Shown here: piece by piece, positions 41,198 through 56,650 of the stretch
Numbering within the stretch: position 1 is the first letter of the stretch
Layout: the number at the start of each line of letters is the position of its first letter
Assembly (NCBI RefSeq): GCF_009914755.1
Contig: NC_060935.1
Strand: one strand, 5' to 3'
Length of the DNA: 64,000 nucleotides
Source: the human T2T-CHM13v2.0 reference genome, Homo sapiens
The notes under the pieces: model-generated
Databases searched by the model: none
What the model saw: the letters and a program-made list of their open reading frames with translations, nothing else
What the model was told of the DNA's origin: nothing
Position numbers and translations under genes: made by a program

Positions 41198-41833
41198 AAC
41201 TAAAATAAATCTGCTACTTGGTATGCAGTCTTTCCAGAACGTGTAATCTGTGGGACTCAAAGGCAAAGTGCTTTTTCTTTTCTCTGTGAAAAGAACAGAA
41301 AGCAAATGTCTTTCTTGTTAAGTACCAATTTTTGATTAAGGATTAATAAACACAATCTGAGTTGAATTAAAATGAGTAATATGGTGCAAACCTTCCATTT
41401 TGTTGACTGATGTTCTGCTTCATGCCAAAGCATACCACAAACTCACACTGGAAGTAAATTACTTCAAATGTGGGGAGAGTGGGTAGTGATAAGAACCAGA
41501 GTAGTAAGCCAGTGCTAAGCTCATATGGAGGTTTACTTTTACTGGCTTATTGATTCTTTCAGATATTATTTGTGGGGACATTTTCTGTGTCAGTATCTTG
41601 AATAATGTGTACAACCAGGTTCAAAAATCTTGCAGTTCAGTGAGTAAGATAGAGTACATAAACAATTGTAATCTGATATTGTAAATATTATGTGAGACGC
41701 ACAATGTGCTATGGAAGAATTGCAGACAAAATATAGGAGAAAATTGCACCTTGATTAGGACTAAAATTCTTTAAAATGTATACCTCATTGAGGTATAATT
41801 CATTTACCATACAGTTCACCCTTTTAAAAAAAA

Positions 41834-44800
41834 TTTATTTATTTATTTTTATTATACTTTAAGATCTAGGGTACATGTGCACAACGTGCAGATTTGTTAC
41901 ATATGTATACGTGTGCCATGTTGGTGCGCTGCACCCATTAACAAGTCATTTACATTAGGTATATCTCCTAATGCTATCCCTCCCCCATCCCCTAACCCCA
42001 AGACAGGCCCCGGTGCATGATGTTCCCCTTCCTGTGTCCAAATGTTCTCATTGTTCAATTCCCACCTATGAGTGAGAACATGCGGTGTTTGGTTTTTTGT
42101 CCTTGAGATAGTTGGTTGAGAAGGATGGTTTCCAGCTTCATCCATGTCTCTACAAAGGACATGAACTCATCATTTTTTATGGCTGTATAGTATTCCATGG
42201 TGTATATGTGGCACATTTTCTTAATCTAGTCTATCATTGGTGGACATTTGGGTTGGTTCCAAGTCTTTGCTATCGTGAATAGTGCCACAATAAACATACA
42301 TGTGCATGTGTCTTTATAGCAGCATGATTTATAATCCTTTGGGTATATACTCAGTAATGGGATGGCTGGGTCAAATGGTATTTCTAGTTCTGGATCCTTG
42401 AGGAGTCACCACACTGTGTTCCACAATGGTTGAACTAGTTTACAGTCCCACCAACAGTGTAAAAGTGTTCCTATTTTTCCACATCCTCTCCAGCACCTGT
42501 TGTTTCCTGACTTTTTAATGATGGCCATTCTAACTGGTGTGAGATGGTATCTCATTGTGGGTTTGATTTGCATTTCTCTGATGGCCAGTGGTGATGAGCA
42601 TTTTTTCATGTGTCTTTTGACTGCATAAATGTCTTCTTTTGAGAAGCATCTGTTCATATACTTTGCCCACTTTTTGATGGGGTTCTTTTTTTCTTGTAAA
42701 TTTGTTGGAGTTCATTGTAGATTCTGGATATTAGCCCTTTGTCAGATGAGTAGATTGCAAAATTTTGCTCCCATTCTGTAGGTTGCCTGTTCACTCTGAT
42801 GGTAGTTTCTTTTGCTGTGCACAAGCTCTCTCATTTAATTGGACCCCATTTGTCAATTTTGGCATTTGTTGTTTTAGACATGAAGTCCTTGCCCATGCCT
42901 ATGTCCTGAATGGTATTGCCTAGTTTTTCTTCTAGGGTTTTTATGGTTTTAGGTCAAAGATTTAAGTCTTTAATCCATCTTGAATTAATTTTTGTGTAAG
43001 GTATAAGGAAGGGATCCAGTTTCAGCTTTCTACATATGGCTAGCCAGTTTTCCCAGCACCATTTATTAAATAGGGAATCCTTTCCCCATTTCTTGTTTTT
43101 GTCAGGTTTGTCAAAGATCGGATAGTTGTAGATATGTGGCATTATTTCTGAGGGCTCTGTTCTGTTCCGTTGGTCTATATCTCTGTTTTGGTACCAGTAC
43201 CATGCTGTTTTGGTTACTGTAGCCTTGTAGTATAGTTTGAAGTCAGGTAGCGTGATGCTTCCAGCTTTGTTCTTTTGGCTTAGGATTGACTTGGCAATGC
43301 GGGCTCTTTTTTGGTTCCATATGAACTTTAAAGTAGTTTTTTCCAATTGTGTGAAGAAAGTCATTGGTAGCTTGATGGGGATGGCATTGAATCTATAAAA
43401 GACCTTGGGCAGTATGGCCATTTTCACGATATTGATTCTTCCTACCCGTGAGCATGGAATGTTCTTCCATTTGTTTGTATCCTCTTTTATTTGATTGAGC
43501 AGTGGTTTGTTGTTCTCCTTGAAGAGGTCCTTCACATCCCTTTTAAGTTGGATTCCTAGGTATTTTATTCTCTTTGAAGCAATTGTGAATGGGAATTCAC
43601 ACATGATTCGGCTCTCTGTTTGTCTGCTATTGGTGTATAAGAATGCTTGTGATTTTTGCACATTGATTTTGTATCCTGATACTTTGCTGAAATTGGTTAT
43701 CAGCTTAAGGAGATTTTGGGCTGAGACGATGGGGTTTTCTAGATATACAATCATGTCATCTGCAAAGAGGGACAATTTGACTTCCTCTTTTCCTAATTGA
43801 ATTCCCTTTATTCCCTTCTCCTGCCTGATTGCCCTGGCCAGAACTTCCAACACTATGTTGAATAGGAGTGGTGAGAGAGGGCACCCCTGTAGTGTGCCAG
43901 TTTTCAAAGGGTATGCTTCCAGTTTTTGCCCATTCAGTGTGTTATTCACTGTGGGTTTGTCATAAATAGCTCTTATTATTTTGAGATTCGTCCTATCAAT
44001 ACCTAATTTATTGAGAGTTTTTAGCATGAAGTGTTGTTGCATTTTGTCAAAGGCCTTTTCTGCATCTATTGAGATAATCATGTGGTTTTTGTCTTTGGTT
44101 CTGTTTTTATGCTGGATTACTTTTATTGATTTGCATATGTTGAGCCAGCCTTGCATCCCAGGGATGAAGCCCACTTGATCATGGTGGATAAGCTTTTTGA
44201 TGTGCTGCTGGATTCGGTTTGCCAGTATTTTATTGAGGATTTTTGCATCAATGTTCATCAAGGATATTGGTCTAAAATTCTCTTTTTCTGTTGTGTCTCT
44301 GCCTGGCTTTGGTATCAGGATGATGCTGGCCTCATAAAATGAGTTAGGGAGGATTCCCTCTTTTTCTATTGATTGTAGTACTTTAAGAAGGAATGGTACC
44401 AGCTCCTCCTTTTACCTCTGGTAGAATTCGGCTGTGAACCCATCTGGTCCTGGACTTATTTTGGTTGGTAAGCTATAAATTATTGCCTCAATTTCAGAGC
44501 CTGTTATTCAGGCTATTCAGAGATTCAACTTCTTCCTGGTTTAGTCTTGGGCGGGTGTATGTGTCAAGGAATTTATCCATGTCTTCTAGATTTTCTAGTT
44601 TATTTGCGTAGAGGTGTTTATAGTATTGTCTGATGGTAGTTTCTATTTCTGTGGAATTGGTGGTGATATCCCCTTTGTCATTTTTTATTGCATCTACTTG
44701 ATTTTTCTCTCTTTTGTTCTTTATTAGTCCTGCTAGCAGTCTATCAATTTTGTTGATCTTTTCAAAAAACCAGCTCCTGGATTCATTGATTTTTTGAAGG

Positions 44801-54441: not shown

Positions 54442-54499
54442 GATGGTGGCCACTTCTGATGGTGGCCATTTGATTGGTGGCCACTTCTGATGGTGGCCA
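54442..54499 (+). repeat. Four imperfect tandem copies of GATGGTGGCCA(CTTCT)
   Basis: Units start at 54442, 54458, 54472 and 54489. Confidence 0.9.
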
Positions 54500-56650
54500 A
54501 CATGATTGAACCATTTGGGATGGAAAAGCACCTTTACTCTCAGCCACCTGTTAACTAATGCTGGAGGTCTGTGAGGAACAGAAGTGTGAAGAAAAGGTTT
54601 TCCCTCTGGCCACGATTTACCTGGACTGTTTCTTCGCCAGGATCCCAACTTCAAAGTCCCATCTGCAACTCCTGGGTGCTGTCTGCATGTTCCTGGCCTC
54701 CAGGCTCAAAGAGTCCAGCCCACTGACTGCCAAAAAGCTGTGCATTTATACCGACAACTCCATCAAGCCTCAGGAGCTGCTGGAGTGGGAACTGGTGGTG
54801 TTGGGAAAGTTGAAGTGGAACCTGGCAGCTGTCACGCCTCATGACTTCATTTAGTACATCTTGCACAAGCTGCCCCAGCAGCGGGAGAAGCTGTCTCCAA
54901 TCTGCAAGCAAGTCCAGACCTTCAATGCTCTGTATGCAATGTACCCGCCATCAATGGTTGCAACTGGAAGTGTAGGAGCAGCTATCTGTGGACTTCAGCA
55001 ACATGAGGAAGTGAGCTCACTCCCTTGCAATGCCCTGACTGAGCTGCTGGCAAAGATCACCAACACAGATGTGGATTGTCTCAAAAGCCAACCGGGAGCA
55101 TATTGAGGTGGTCTTCCTCAACAGCCTGCAGCAGTGCCATCAGGACCAGCAGGACAGATCCAAGTCAGAGGATGAACTGGGCCAAGCCAGCACCCCTATA
55201 GACCTGTGAGATATCGACCTGTGAGGATGGCAGTCCAGCTGAGAGGCGCATTCATAATCTGCTGTCTCCTTCTTTCTGGTTATGTTTTGTTCTTTGTATC
55301 TTAGGGCGAAACTTAAAAAAAAAAACCTCTGCCCCCACATAGTTCGTGTTTAAAGATCTTTTAGAAGTGACAGAAAATAGTCCTATAAAAACAGAATAAG
55401 AAAAAGCCTTTGGTGCTTATTTGAAGTGCAGCATAAGGGAATCCCTCGTATATTCGAACAGTTATTGTTTGATTATGTAAAAGTAATGGTAAAATGCTTG
55501 CAGGAAAACCTGCAGGGTAGTTAGAGAATATGTATGTCTGCAATATGGAAACAAATTAGAGGAGACTTTTTTTTTTCATGTTGTGAGCTAGCACATACAC
55601 CCCCTTGTAGTATAATTTCAAGGAACTGTGTATGCCATTTATGGCATGATTAGATTATAAAGCAATGAACTCAAGAAGGAATTGGAAATAAGGAAGGACT
55701 TGATGGGGAAGGAGTACAAAACAATCTCTCAACATGATTGAACCATTTGGGACGGAGAAGCACCTTTACTCTCAGCCACCTGTTACTAAGTCAGAAGTGT
55801 GGTTGGATCTCTATGTTGGGTACTCTTGCTGTCTACATTAGCTGCTACCTAAATAAGATGTTTTATTTTGCCAGTTGGACACAGGTGATTGGCTTCTGGA
55901 TTTCTTGTCCTGTGACATCTTGCTTCTTCCAAATGCAGTTCATTGCGGACACCACAGTATTGCTATCTAATGGGGGAAATGTAGCTATGGGCTGTAACCA
56001 AAACTCACATGAAATGGAGGCAGATGGAGACCTGGGGTGGCATCCAGAATGGAATCTTTTCTCTTATTGTATTAAAAAGGGTAACGTGACCTTGGCATTC
56101 CTTCTTAGGAAAAACTAATTTTTGGTGCTGATTGGCATGTCTGCTCCACAGGTTAGCATTGTTCTAAACCATTCCATTCGAAAAGCACTTTGAAAAATTT
56201 TTCCCTAGCAATAGATGGCATGGTTTATGCAAGTCATGCTGAATACTCCTCCCCTCTTCTCTCTTGCCCCCTCCCTCCCTGCCTCCATCTGGGTTACTCT
56301 TCACCTCTGGTATCTGACATTCTTGGGTACACATTTCTGGTGTTCCTACCAGGACACAAGAGACACCTCTTTCTGCTGACATCCCCATCACAACATTCCT
56401 CAGAAAAGCCTAAAAACAAAGATCTGTTACCATTCTGATGACACAGAGGATCTTCATTTTATTTCTTTAAATACCTAATTTTACATCTTTATACTTCTTT
56501 GGACATGGAAAGAAAAGTTATTGCGGGTGCAAAGACAGATGGCTGAACATCAGGGGGTGGCATTTTGTTTCCTTTTCCTTTTTTGTTTTTGGTAATTTTA
56601 TTGCAAAGTTGTATTCAGTGTACATGAATTTTTTTTCCTCTTCTGTTCTT

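What the first reader, a model, noticed from the sequence alone, without database searches (positions are those of the whole stretch)
41283..54640. Predicted composite 5' UTR for SLC22A25 built from a cyclin D2 retrocopy (antisense) and the dead duplicate exons
Seen on the minus strand is an ordered chain of good splice sites. There is a donor CCAG|GTAAAT at 54621/54620 inside the CCND2 retrocopy CDS (antisense). An acceptor ttttgcctccttttag| opens at 50322, 20 nt before the pseudo-ATG, and the ancestral donor |gtaaga follows 49904 (419-nt exon). An intact acceptor opens at 49199. Its ancestral donor is killed (GT>AT at 49099), but a strong substitute CTA|GTGAGTA lies 32 nt further on at 49068 (132-nt exon). 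Finally, an acceptor tttctgttcttttcacag| opens at 41283, 444 nt upstream of the true ATG. Inference: a transcript starting in the retrocopy splices through both pseudo-exons, skips the 6-kb L1 and enters the coding exon, giving 995 nt of leader plus a first exon. Two unrelated pseudogenes would be co-opted as the leader of a transporter gene. I recall multi-exon 5' UTR models for this gene but cannot verify them here.
Basis: partly seen in the sequence, partly recalled or inferred. Interest (0 to 1): 0.8.

Follow-up and report, generated by a model that had tools for sequence, protein, structure and literature searches.

The report
SLC22A25 leader built from pseudogenes

Summary
They equal the 5' exons of RefSeq NM_199352.6 in the hub table (54621-54786, 49904-50322, 49068-49199, 40438-41283).

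- Exon 1 lies antisense in a textbook processed CCND2 retrocopy. It spans 54024-58581, has a poly(A) tail and 14-nt target-site duplications, and is much longer than the annotated CCND2P1.
- Exons 2-3 are not a copy of SLC22A25's own exons. They are the relic of a lost paralogue, and their sister is another relic next to the probable SLC22A9 (support 100/100). A clade with SLC22A25 is rejected (AU p 3e-85).
- The exon-2 acceptor AG arose by a G>A change; 5 of 5 paralogue copies have G.
- The exon-3 donor loss (GT>AT) is specific to this relic. The substitute GT is shared with the sister relic.
- The leader is 1161 nt and holds 24 upstream ATGs, with uORFs of up to 108 codons. Under the scanning model it should translate poorly.

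No expression data could be consulted. No paper describing this origin was found. Interest is low to moderate: a known transcript and a known kind of exaptation.

The parts
54621..54786 (-). Non-coding exon 1 of SLC22A25 (166 nt). It is antisense to the part of the retrocopy derived from CCND2 exon 2, plus 4 nt of exon 3.
   Evidence: Hub table for NM_199352.6. Donor read. Alignment to parent CCND2 exon 2: 163 nt, 89.6% identity, no gaps.
54024..58581 (+). Processed CCND2 retrocopy (CCND2P1, longer than annotated). It holds 5'UTR, CDS and about 3.3 kb of 3'UTR, an AATAAA at 58550-58555 and an A15 tail at 58566-58580. Later insertions lie at 54455-54565 and 56651-56947.
   Evidence: five parent exons contiguous, 82-91% identity; poly(A) signal and tail; reading frame broken into pieces; Cyclin_N and Cyclin_C.
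54010..54023 (+). 5' target-site duplication aaagaaggaggtgg of the retrocopy. The 3' copy lies at 58578-58591.
   Evidence: read directly.
49904..50322 (-). Non-coding exon 2 (419 nt). It is the relic of exon 1 of a lost SLC22 paralogue and carries a pseudo-ATG at 50302. Its acceptor AG (50324-50323) was created by a G>A change. Its donor is the ancestral exon-1 donor.
   Evidence: 5 of 5 other copies have G where the relic has the A of AG.
49068..49199 (-). Non-coding exon 3 (132 nt). It is the relic of exon 2 with the ancestral acceptor. The ancestral donor is dead (GT>AT at 49099) and there is a 4-nt deletion. The substitute donor GTGAGT lies 32 nt downstream.
   Evidence: 5 of 5 other copies keep GT and the 4 nt. 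The substitute GT is shared with the sister relic only.
40840..41283 (-). Non-coding part (444 nt) of the first coding exon, entered through acceptor cacAG|A.
   Evidence: A polypyrimidine tract plus AG is present in 3 of 3 copies that reach this far.
40438..40839 (-). Coding part of the first coding exon of SLC22A25. The open frame continues through the next three exons in the window.
   Evidence: 276 codons with no stop across 40438-40839, 39648-39751, 28770-28924 and 28503-28671.
48112..50800 (-). Whole relic of the lost paralogue: about 480 nt upstream sequence, exon 1, intron 1, exon 2 and the start of intron 2. No relic of exons 3 or 4 was found in 41300-64000.
42015..47608 (-). Degraded near-full-length L1, in sense orientation, inside the 7.8-kb intron between non-coding exon 3 and the coding exon.
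   Evidence: ORF1 RBD, endonuclease and RT domains on the minus strand. The limits come from the hub's repeat mask.
49976..50302 (-). Longest upstream ORF of the leader (108 codons). It starts at the pseudo-ATG, which has the same context as the true start (T at -3, G at +4).

Best explanation
This is the annotated multi-exon 5' UTR of human SLC22A25 (UST6), assembled by exaptation of two unrelated dead sequences.

Structure (shown by sequence and annotation):
- Transcription starts at about 54786 on the minus strand, inside a processed CCND2 retrocopy that lies in the opposite orientation.
- The first donor, CAG|GTAA, is simply the reverse complement of the cyclin-box codons Tyr-Leu-Asp (TAC CTG GAC). 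The retrocopy brought it along.
- The transcript then splices into the first two exons of a dead SLC22 paralogue that sits upstream of SLC22A25.
- A G>A change in that relic's former 5' UTR made the acceptor at 50322. The old exon-1 donor and exon-2 acceptor are reused.
- After the exon-2 donor was lost (GT>AT), a GT 32 nt downstream took over.
- The last intron (7.8 kb) removes a sense-oriented L1 and ends at an acceptor 444 nt before the true ATG.

Consequence (inferred): the 1161-nt leader carries 24 upstream ATGs and uORFs of up to 108 codons. Under the scanning model this mRNA should be translated inefficiently and should be prone to uORF-triggered decay.

Origin (inferred): I think the leader is most likely a neutral by-product of promoter capture in a primate-specific, duplication-rich gene cluster, not a selected device.
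For: - Splice sites sit at the exact bases and are identical to the NM_199352.6 exons in the hub table (6 of 6 sites).
- Retrocopy hallmarks are present: five CCND2 exons contiguous at 82-91% identity; 3'UTR to parent position 4,309,920, then AATAAA, an A15 tail and a 14-nt target-site duplication.
- The donor core is inherited. The parent antisense reads CAG|GTAATT and the retrocopy CAG|GTAAAT.
- Acceptor gain: 5 of 5 other copies have G at 50324.
- Donor loss and the 4-nt deletion are specific to the relic: 5 of 5 other copies are intact.
- Relic phylogeny on 1951 columns: relic plus the chr11:63.326 Mb relic 100/100; SLC22A25 plus the 63.359 Mb copy 89/92; relic plus SLC22A25 rejected at AU p 2.8e-85.
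- The leader is 1161 nt with 24 uATGs (20.2 +/- 4.2 in 1000 shuffles, so not depleted). None overlaps the main ATG, and the last uORF stop is at 40965.
- The other RefSeq exon ends in the hub table are also splice sites inside the relic: AG precedes 50211 and GT follows 48527. The hub table therefore lists splice variants that re-use the relic, and it lists no alternative first exon near the ATG.
- SLC22A25 is described as liver-restricted and primate-specific (passages read in PMC6906560, PMC7084758 and PMC4633038).
Against: - I saw no RNA-seq, CAGE or cDNA evidence myself. The transcript rests on the curated annotation.
- The region just upstream of the ATG is still 80% identical over 550 nt to that of the sister gene, so an unannotated proximal promoter could exist and could supply the translated mRNA.
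- The uATG count equals random expectation. That fits neutrality, but it says nothing direct about translation.
- The core-promoter reading is weak. The 5' end at 54786 lies in CCACTCC with AGTTG at +28 to +32. Both the Inr and the DPE consensus are recalled from memory, and both motifs are inherited coding sequence.
Confidence: 0.85

Rival explanations
1. The long leader is a minor or poorly productive isoform. The SLC22A25 protein in hepatocytes would be made mainly from transcripts that start at an unannotated proximal promoter near the ATG, inherited from the ancestor shared with the probable SLC22A9.
For: - 41284-41828 is 80% identical over 550 nt to the upstream region of the 63.359 Mb sister copy.
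- 24 uATGs and a 108-codon uORF make the annotated leader a poor template.
Against: - The RefSeq selected transcript and every alternative exon in the hub table use the upstream exons. No 5' end near the ATG is listed.
- The exon that contains the ATG begins at a good acceptor: 10 of 12 pyrimidines.
Confidence: 0.2
2. The uORF-rich leader is a selected translational or NMD control device for the transporter, not a by-product.
For: - The pseudo-ATG keeps the same context as the true ATG (T at -3, G at +4).
- An annotated alternative acceptor at 50211 removes the pseudo-ATG and the next ATG, which could tune the uORF load.
Against: - uATGs are neither enriched nor depleted against shuffles (24 against 20.2 +/- 4.2).
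- The relic shows plain neutral decay: three 1-nt deletions, a 4-nt deletion and TGG>TAG at 50157-50155.
- No cross-species data were available to test constraint.
Confidence: 0.1
3. The first exon is a cDNA or annotation artefact caused by similarity to CCND2 mRNA.
For: The annotated 5' end (54786) lies only 4 nt from the CCND2 exon 2/3 junction in the retrocopy (54782|54783).
Against: - The exon is antisense to CCND2.
- It ends at the best donor in 14 kb (8 of 9 matches).
- It is joined by canonical GT-AG to an SLC22 relic exon. Misaligned CCND2 cDNA could not produce that.
Confidence: 0.03

Closest known systems
RefSeq NM_199352.6 (SLC22A25, selected transcript) overlapping CCND2P1
   Same: Identical exon coordinates for all four 5' exons. 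The overlap of exon 1 with the CCND2 pseudogene on the opposite strand is visible in the annotation.
   Different: Nothing in the structure differs. The annotation does not say where exons 2-3 come from, and it gives CCND2P1 as 54072-55424 only, whereas the retrocopy runs 54024-58581.
Retrocopy-derived exons in host or neighbouring genes. The review PMC5408686 (passages read) cites Baertsch et al. for alternatively spliced 3' exons from antisense retrocopy insertions in SCP2, HLA-F and KIAA0415.
   Same: An antisense-oriented processed retrocopy supplies an exon to an unrelated gene through splice signals that are fortuitous in its reverse complement.
   Different: Here the retrocopy supplies the first exon and the annotated start site, not a 3' or internal exon. 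It is also combined with relic exons of a dead paralogue.
Retrotransposon-derived alternative promoters and first exons (for example L1 antisense-promoter chimeric transcripts: PMC3985663 and PMC13690279, search listings only)
   Same: A retroposed sequence upstream of a gene initiates a transcript that splices into the gene and adds a non-coding leader.
   Different: The donor sequence is a cellular mRNA retrocopy with no known promoter of its own. Promoter activity was not tested here.
uORF-laden long 5' leaders that lower protein output (general knowledge, recalled; no paper read for this)
   Same: Many upstream ATGs and long uORFs lie ahead of a start codon in only moderate context.
   Different: Part of the uORF load is the fossil start codon and N-terminal frame of a paralogous transporter.

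Membership tests
Annotated SLC22A25 5' UTR (NM_199352.6) | Exon boundaries 54621-54786, 49904-50322, 49068-49199 and 41283 as the acceptor of the ATG exon | tested here: met
   Searches place canonical GT and AG dinucleotides at each boundary: 6 of 6 sites.
Annotated SLC22A25 5' UTR (NM_199352.6) | Transcript evidence (junction reads, capped 5' ends) in liver | not testable with these tools
   No expression data are held. Only the hub's RefSeq table was available.
L1-mediated processed pseudogene (retrocopy) of CCND2 | All parent exons contiguous, without introns | tested here: met
   the five chr12 exons map end to end onto 54024-55500. The one break is a 111-nt filler between the exon 1 and exon 2 parts.
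L1-mediated processed pseudogene (retrocopy) of CCND2 | Poly(A) signal, poly(A) tail and flanking target-site duplication | tested here: met
   AATAAA at 58550-58555, A15 at 58566-58580, and aaagaaggaggtgg at 54010-54023 and 58578-58591.
L1-mediated processed pseudogene (retrocopy) of CCND2 | Closest to CCND2 rather than another D-type cyclin | tested here: met
   82-91% identity to chr12:4.28-4.31 Mb, against 76% to chr11:69.66 Mb (presumed CCND1; the name is recalled from its position). The parent is named CCND2 from the hub's label.
Tandem duplicate of SLC22A25's own exons 1-2 | The relic should be sister to SLC22A25 in a tree of the cluster's copies | tested here: not met
   the relic is sister to the chr11:63.326 Mb relic (100/100). 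Holding the relic with SLC22A25 costs 104.6 lnL (AU p 2.8e-85). Identity is 81.8% to the sister relic (1245 columns) against 74.5% to SLC22A25 (1904 columns).
Unprocessed pseudogene fragment of an OATS4-type SLC22 gene | Homology covers exons and intron with conserved exon-intron structure, plus disabling lesions | tested here: met
   exon 1, intron 1 and exon 2 are colinear. Lesions are 1-nt deletions, a 4-nt deletion, TGG>TAG at 50157-50155 and a dead donor. No exons 3 or 4 were found.
Core promoter with Inr (and DPE) at the annotated start | YYANWYY at +1 and RGWYV at +28 to +32 (both consensus strings recalled from memory) | tested here: inconclusive
   CCACTCC around A 54786, and AGTTG at 54759-54755. 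Motif matches only; both are inherited CCND2 coding sequence. No activity data.

The most novel reading that the evidence does not exclude
The liver-specific SLC22A25 mRNA carries, as its first 166 nt, an antisense copy of the cyclin-box exon of CCND2. It has 49-nt and 34-nt runs of perfect complementarity to CCND2 mRNA. It could therefore act in trans as a natural antisense RNA, by duplex formation, editing or small-RNA production, that dampens cyclin D2 in hepatocytes. In that case a transporter mRNA would double as a cell-cycle regulator. The upstream lncRNA LOC105369334 ends antisense in the same retrocopy's 3'UTR part and would belong to the same system.
Probability: 0.03. Interest if true: 0.6.

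Novelty: already known. Interest (0 to 1): 0.25.

Why it matters
- For the scan, this is a calibration point. A reader working from raw sequence alone recovered all six splice sites of a curated multi-exon 5' UTR.
- Biologically it is a tidy worked example of how a young, primate-specific gene acquired its leader and annotated start site. The parts are a reverse-oriented retrocopy, whose codons happen to read as a splice donor, and two fossil exons of a lost paralogue reactivated by single-base changes.
- The leader's 24 uATGs may help explain why SLC22A25 remains an orphan transporter.
- Any expression construct or variant interpretation for this gene should take the leader into account.
- It does not open a new kind of mechanism.

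Tried and rejected
- **Junction-made initiator motif.** I considered that the Inr-like motif at the annotated start was created by the CCND2 exon 2/3 junction of the retrocopy. Rejected: the parent genomic sequence reads the same at that point, because the last base of the intron equals the last base of exon 2.
- **TATA box as promoter.** TATAAAT at 54750-54744 (minus strand) was created by a C>T change relative to the parent. It lies 36 nt downstream of the annotated 5' end, so it cannot explain that start. Kept only as a passing note.
- **Exon-1-only tree** (510 columns, 8 rows). It was unresolved apart from SLC22A24 plus the 63.255 Mb relic. It was replaced by the 1951-column tree.
- **Dropped outgroup row.** The first run of the long tree failed at display because the distant outgroup row (chr11:64.549 Mb, 191 columns) had been dropped for low coverage. 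One search was run without that row, so its root (SLC22A24 plus the 63.255 Mb relic) is an assumption. The clade tests used are root-free.
- **Further relic exons.** A search for exons 3 and 4 of the lost paralogue in 41300-64000 by blastn and tblastx found nothing.
- **A second CCND2 retrocopy beside the sister relic.** None appeared among the scored genome matches. That tool scores only the best candidates.
- **Literature.**
  - 'CCND2P1': 1 paper, a TCGA gene list, seen in the search listing only.
  - 'SLC22A25' + 'retrocop': 0 papers.
  - 'SLC22A25' + 'UTR' + 'first exon': 0 papers.
  - 'SLC22A25' alone: 69 papers, 25 listed, none on gene structure by title.
  - Within those searches of the held library, the origin of the leader is not in print.
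- **RNA duplex energies.** The energies of exon 1 against CCND2 exon 2 are not used as evidence, because the shuffled controls also gave large values.

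
Full report
**Observation**

- CCAG|GTAAAT ends an exon at 54621.
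- ttttgcctccttttAG opens an exon at 50322, 20 nt before an ATG at 50302. That exon ends G|GTAAGA after 49904.
- ttcttctAG opens an exon at 49199. The position homologous to the ancestral donor reads AT at 49099-49098. CTA|GTGAGTA ends the exon at 49068.
- tttctgttcttttcacAG opens the last exon at 41283, 444 nt before ATG 40839.

All six predicted splice sites are therefore annotated ones.

**Chance**

I scored the 14,061 nt of minus strand between 40840 and 54900.
- The 54621 donor is the single best of 622 GT sites (8 of 9 consensus matches).
- The other two donors score 7 and 6 of 9, and 33 and 127 sites reach those scores.
- The acceptors at 50322 and 49199 have 11 of 12 pyrimidines (5 of 1092 AG sites do). 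The acceptor at 41283 has 10 of 12 (13 sites do).
- Site strength alone would not single out the chain. The homology logic plus the annotation does.

**Exon 1 and the retrocopy**

- The + strand of 54555-54854 is a Cyclin_N domain (E 1e-25), and 54855-55106 is Cyclin_C. The best solved relatives are cyclins D1 and D3.
- Against the window's own genome, the region matches five exons at chr12:4.28-4.31 Mb end to end, at 82, 90, 91, 87 and 85% identity. The hub names the parent CCND2.
- The copy continues through about 3.3 kb of the parent 3'UTR, to window position 58542.
- It ends with AATAAA (58550-58555) and an A15 tail (58566-58580). It is flanked by aaagaaggaggtgg at 54010-54023 and at 58578-58591.
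- It is thus a textbook L1-mediated processed pseudogene spanning 54024-58581, far longer than the annotated CCND2P1 (54072-55424).
- SLC22A25 exon 1 is antisense to the part derived from CCND2 exon 2: 163 nt aligned, 89.6% identity, no gaps.
- The donor is the reverse complement of the cyclin-box codons TAC CTG GAC. The parent antisense reads CAG|GTAATT and the retrocopy CAG|GTAAAT. The splice donor therefore came ready-made with the retrocopy.
- The annotated 5' end (A at 54786) lies in CCACTCC, with AGTTG at +28 to +32. These resemble Inr and DPE consensus strings that I recall from memory. Both are inherited coding sequence, and this is weak evidence for a promoter.

**Exons 2-3 and the relic**

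- 48881-50776 aligns with 39434-41324 (SLC22A25 upstream region, exon 1, intron 1, exon 2) at 73% over 1938 columns.
- A genome search found further copies in the same cluster:
  - SLC22A24 exon 1;
  - SLC22A10 exons 1-2;
  - a full-length unit at 63.359 Mb on the + strand. By elimination, and from my recall of the gene order, this is SLC22A9; the name was not verified here;
  - a relic at 63.255 Mb on the minus strand;
  - a relic at 63.326-63.331 Mb on the + strand.
- A maximum-likelihood tree on 1951 columns gives:
  - window relic + 63.326 Mb relic: 100/100;
  - SLC22A25 + 63.359 Mb copy: 89/92;
  - SLC22A24 + 63.255 Mb relic: 100/99.
- Forcing the window relic together with SLC22A25 is rejected (delta lnL 104.6, AU p 2.8e-85).
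- Pairwise identities agree: 81.8% to the sister relic over 1245 columns, against 74.5% to SLC22A25 over 1904 columns.
- So the pseudo-exons are not a tandem copy of SLC22A25's own 5' end. They are what is left of a separate paralogue.
- On both sides of the cluster the order, in the direction of transcription, is relic then gene. On the minus strand it is window relic then SLC22A25. On the + strand it is 63.326 Mb relic then the 63.359 Mb copy. This points to an old inverted duplication of a two-gene unit (inference).
- No disabling lesion is shared by the two relics in the region compared, so they may have died independently.
- No relic of exons 3 or 4 exists in 41300-64000.
- Branch lengths of about 0.11 substitutions per site for each relic, and 9-18% divergence of the retrocopy from its parent, suggest ages of tens of millions of years. 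This rests on a recalled neutral rate and is rough. It is compatible with the published view that SLC22A25 is primate-specific (PMC4633038, passages read).

**How the relic became spliceable**

- At the acceptor of exon 2 the relic reads TTTTAG|GG. Four of the other five copies read TTGG|GG and the fifth TTGA|GG. All five have G where the relic has the A of AG. A single G>A in the former 5' UTR therefore created the acceptor.
- The exon-1 donor (GTAAGA) and the exon-2 acceptor are ancestral.
- The GT>AT at 49099 and a 4-nt deletion are specific to this relic: 5 of 5 other copies covering the site are intact.
- The substitute donor's GT is shared with the sister relic (GTGCAT there, GTGAGT here). 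It is absent from SLC22A25 and the 63.359 Mb copy, which read AAGGGT and AAGGGC.
- The acceptor region at 41283 (polypyrimidine tract plus AG) is present in all 3 copies that extend that far. It predates the gene's separation from its sister.
- The 7.8-kb last UTR intron contains a degraded, sense-oriented L1. ORF1, endonuclease and RT domains were found in 3 of the 6 ORFs scanned.

**Consequences (inferred)**

- The spliced leader is 1161 nt, 44.6% G+C, with 24 ATGs. Mononucleotide shuffles give 20.2 +/- 4.2, so there is no depletion.
- Four ATGs lie in the retrocopy exon. One of them opens a 101-codon uORF.
- The pseudo-ATG at 50302 has the same context as the true start (T at -3, G at +4) and opens a 108-codon uORF.
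- No uORF overlaps the main ATG. The last uORF stop is 125 nt upstream of it.
- Under the scanning model (established knowledge, recalled) such a leader should strongly reduce initiation at the true ATG. It should also expose the mRNA to uORF-dependent NMD.
- The alternative RefSeq exon ends in the hub table are further splice sites in the relic. AG precedes 50211; that acceptor skips the pseudo-ATG and the next ATG. GT follows 48527.

**What is known**

- Retrocopies supplying exons to other genes, including antisense insertions, are a described class (PMC5408686, passages read).
- SLC22A25 is described as an orphan, liver-restricted, primate-specific member of the OATS4/UST cluster (PMC6906560, PMC7084758, PMC4633038 and PMC6760779, passages read).
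- I found no paper on the origin of its leader. Searches: CCND2P1, 1 paper, a gene list seen in the listing only; SLC22A25 + retrocop, 0 papers; SLC22A25 + UTR + first exon, 0 papers.

**Limits**

- No RNA data and no other mammalian genome were available.
- Isoform dominance, promoter activity, translation efficiency and the dating of each step are therefore untested.

**Verdict**

The feature is already annotated and belongs to a known kind of exaptation. Interest is low to moderate.

Noticed in passing
window 54024-58581 (+): The CCND2 retrocopy is about 4.56 kb, not the 1.35 kb annotated as CCND2P1. It includes about 3.3 kb of 3'UTR, a poly(A) signal, an A15 tail and 14-nt target-site duplications. 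A later insertion of about 297 nt lies at 56651-56947.
   Followed up: yes
window 56882-58429 (-): The last exon of lncRNA LOC105369334 (hub table) lies wholly inside the 3'UTR part of the same retrocopy, antisense to it. Two minus-strand transcription units therefore draw exons from one reversed retrocopy.
   Followed up: partly
window 54455-54565 (+): A 111-nt filler interrupts the retrocopy between its CCND2 exon 1 and exon 2 parts. 69 nt of it (54498-54566) copy the retrocopy's own 3'UTR segment 55730-55789 at 95% identity (91% to the parent). This suggests a later internal duplication or a template switch.
   Followed up: partly
window 54744-54750 (-): TATAAAT was created by a C>T change relative to parent CCND2 (TGTAAAT there). 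It lies 36 nt downstream of the annotated 5' end. It could direct an unannotated start near 54720.
   Followed up: partly
L024 (chr11:63,255,124-63,255,690, minus strand; window-equivalent about 77124-77690, outside the window): This is another SLC22 exon-1 relic (plus a 69-nt exon-2 fragment) between the window and SLC22A10. It is sister to SLC22A24 exon 1 (100/99) and is not in the hub's list of nearby genes.
   Followed up: partly
L022/L025 (chr11:63,325,763-63,331,490, + strand): This is the sister relic of the window's pseudo-exons, lying between SLC22A10 and the probable SLC22A9. It lacks the 5' half of exon 1, has its own 6-nt and 2-nt deletions, has a dead exon-2 acceptor (TTG), and is split by about 4.5 kb of extra sequence.
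   Followed up: partly
window 50737-50738 (-): The relic keeps a polypyrimidine tract plus CACAG homologous to the SLC22A25 acceptor at 41283. The 63.359 Mb copy has CAGAG there. The ancestral gene may already have had an upstream non-coding exon.
   Followed up: no
window 42015-47608 (-): The near-full-length L1 sits in sense orientation inside the last 5'UTR intron. ORF2 is broken into at least separate endonuclease and RT frames. A repeat of about 265 nt (about 90% identical to several copies, probably an Alu) lies at 41838-42100.
   Followed up: partly
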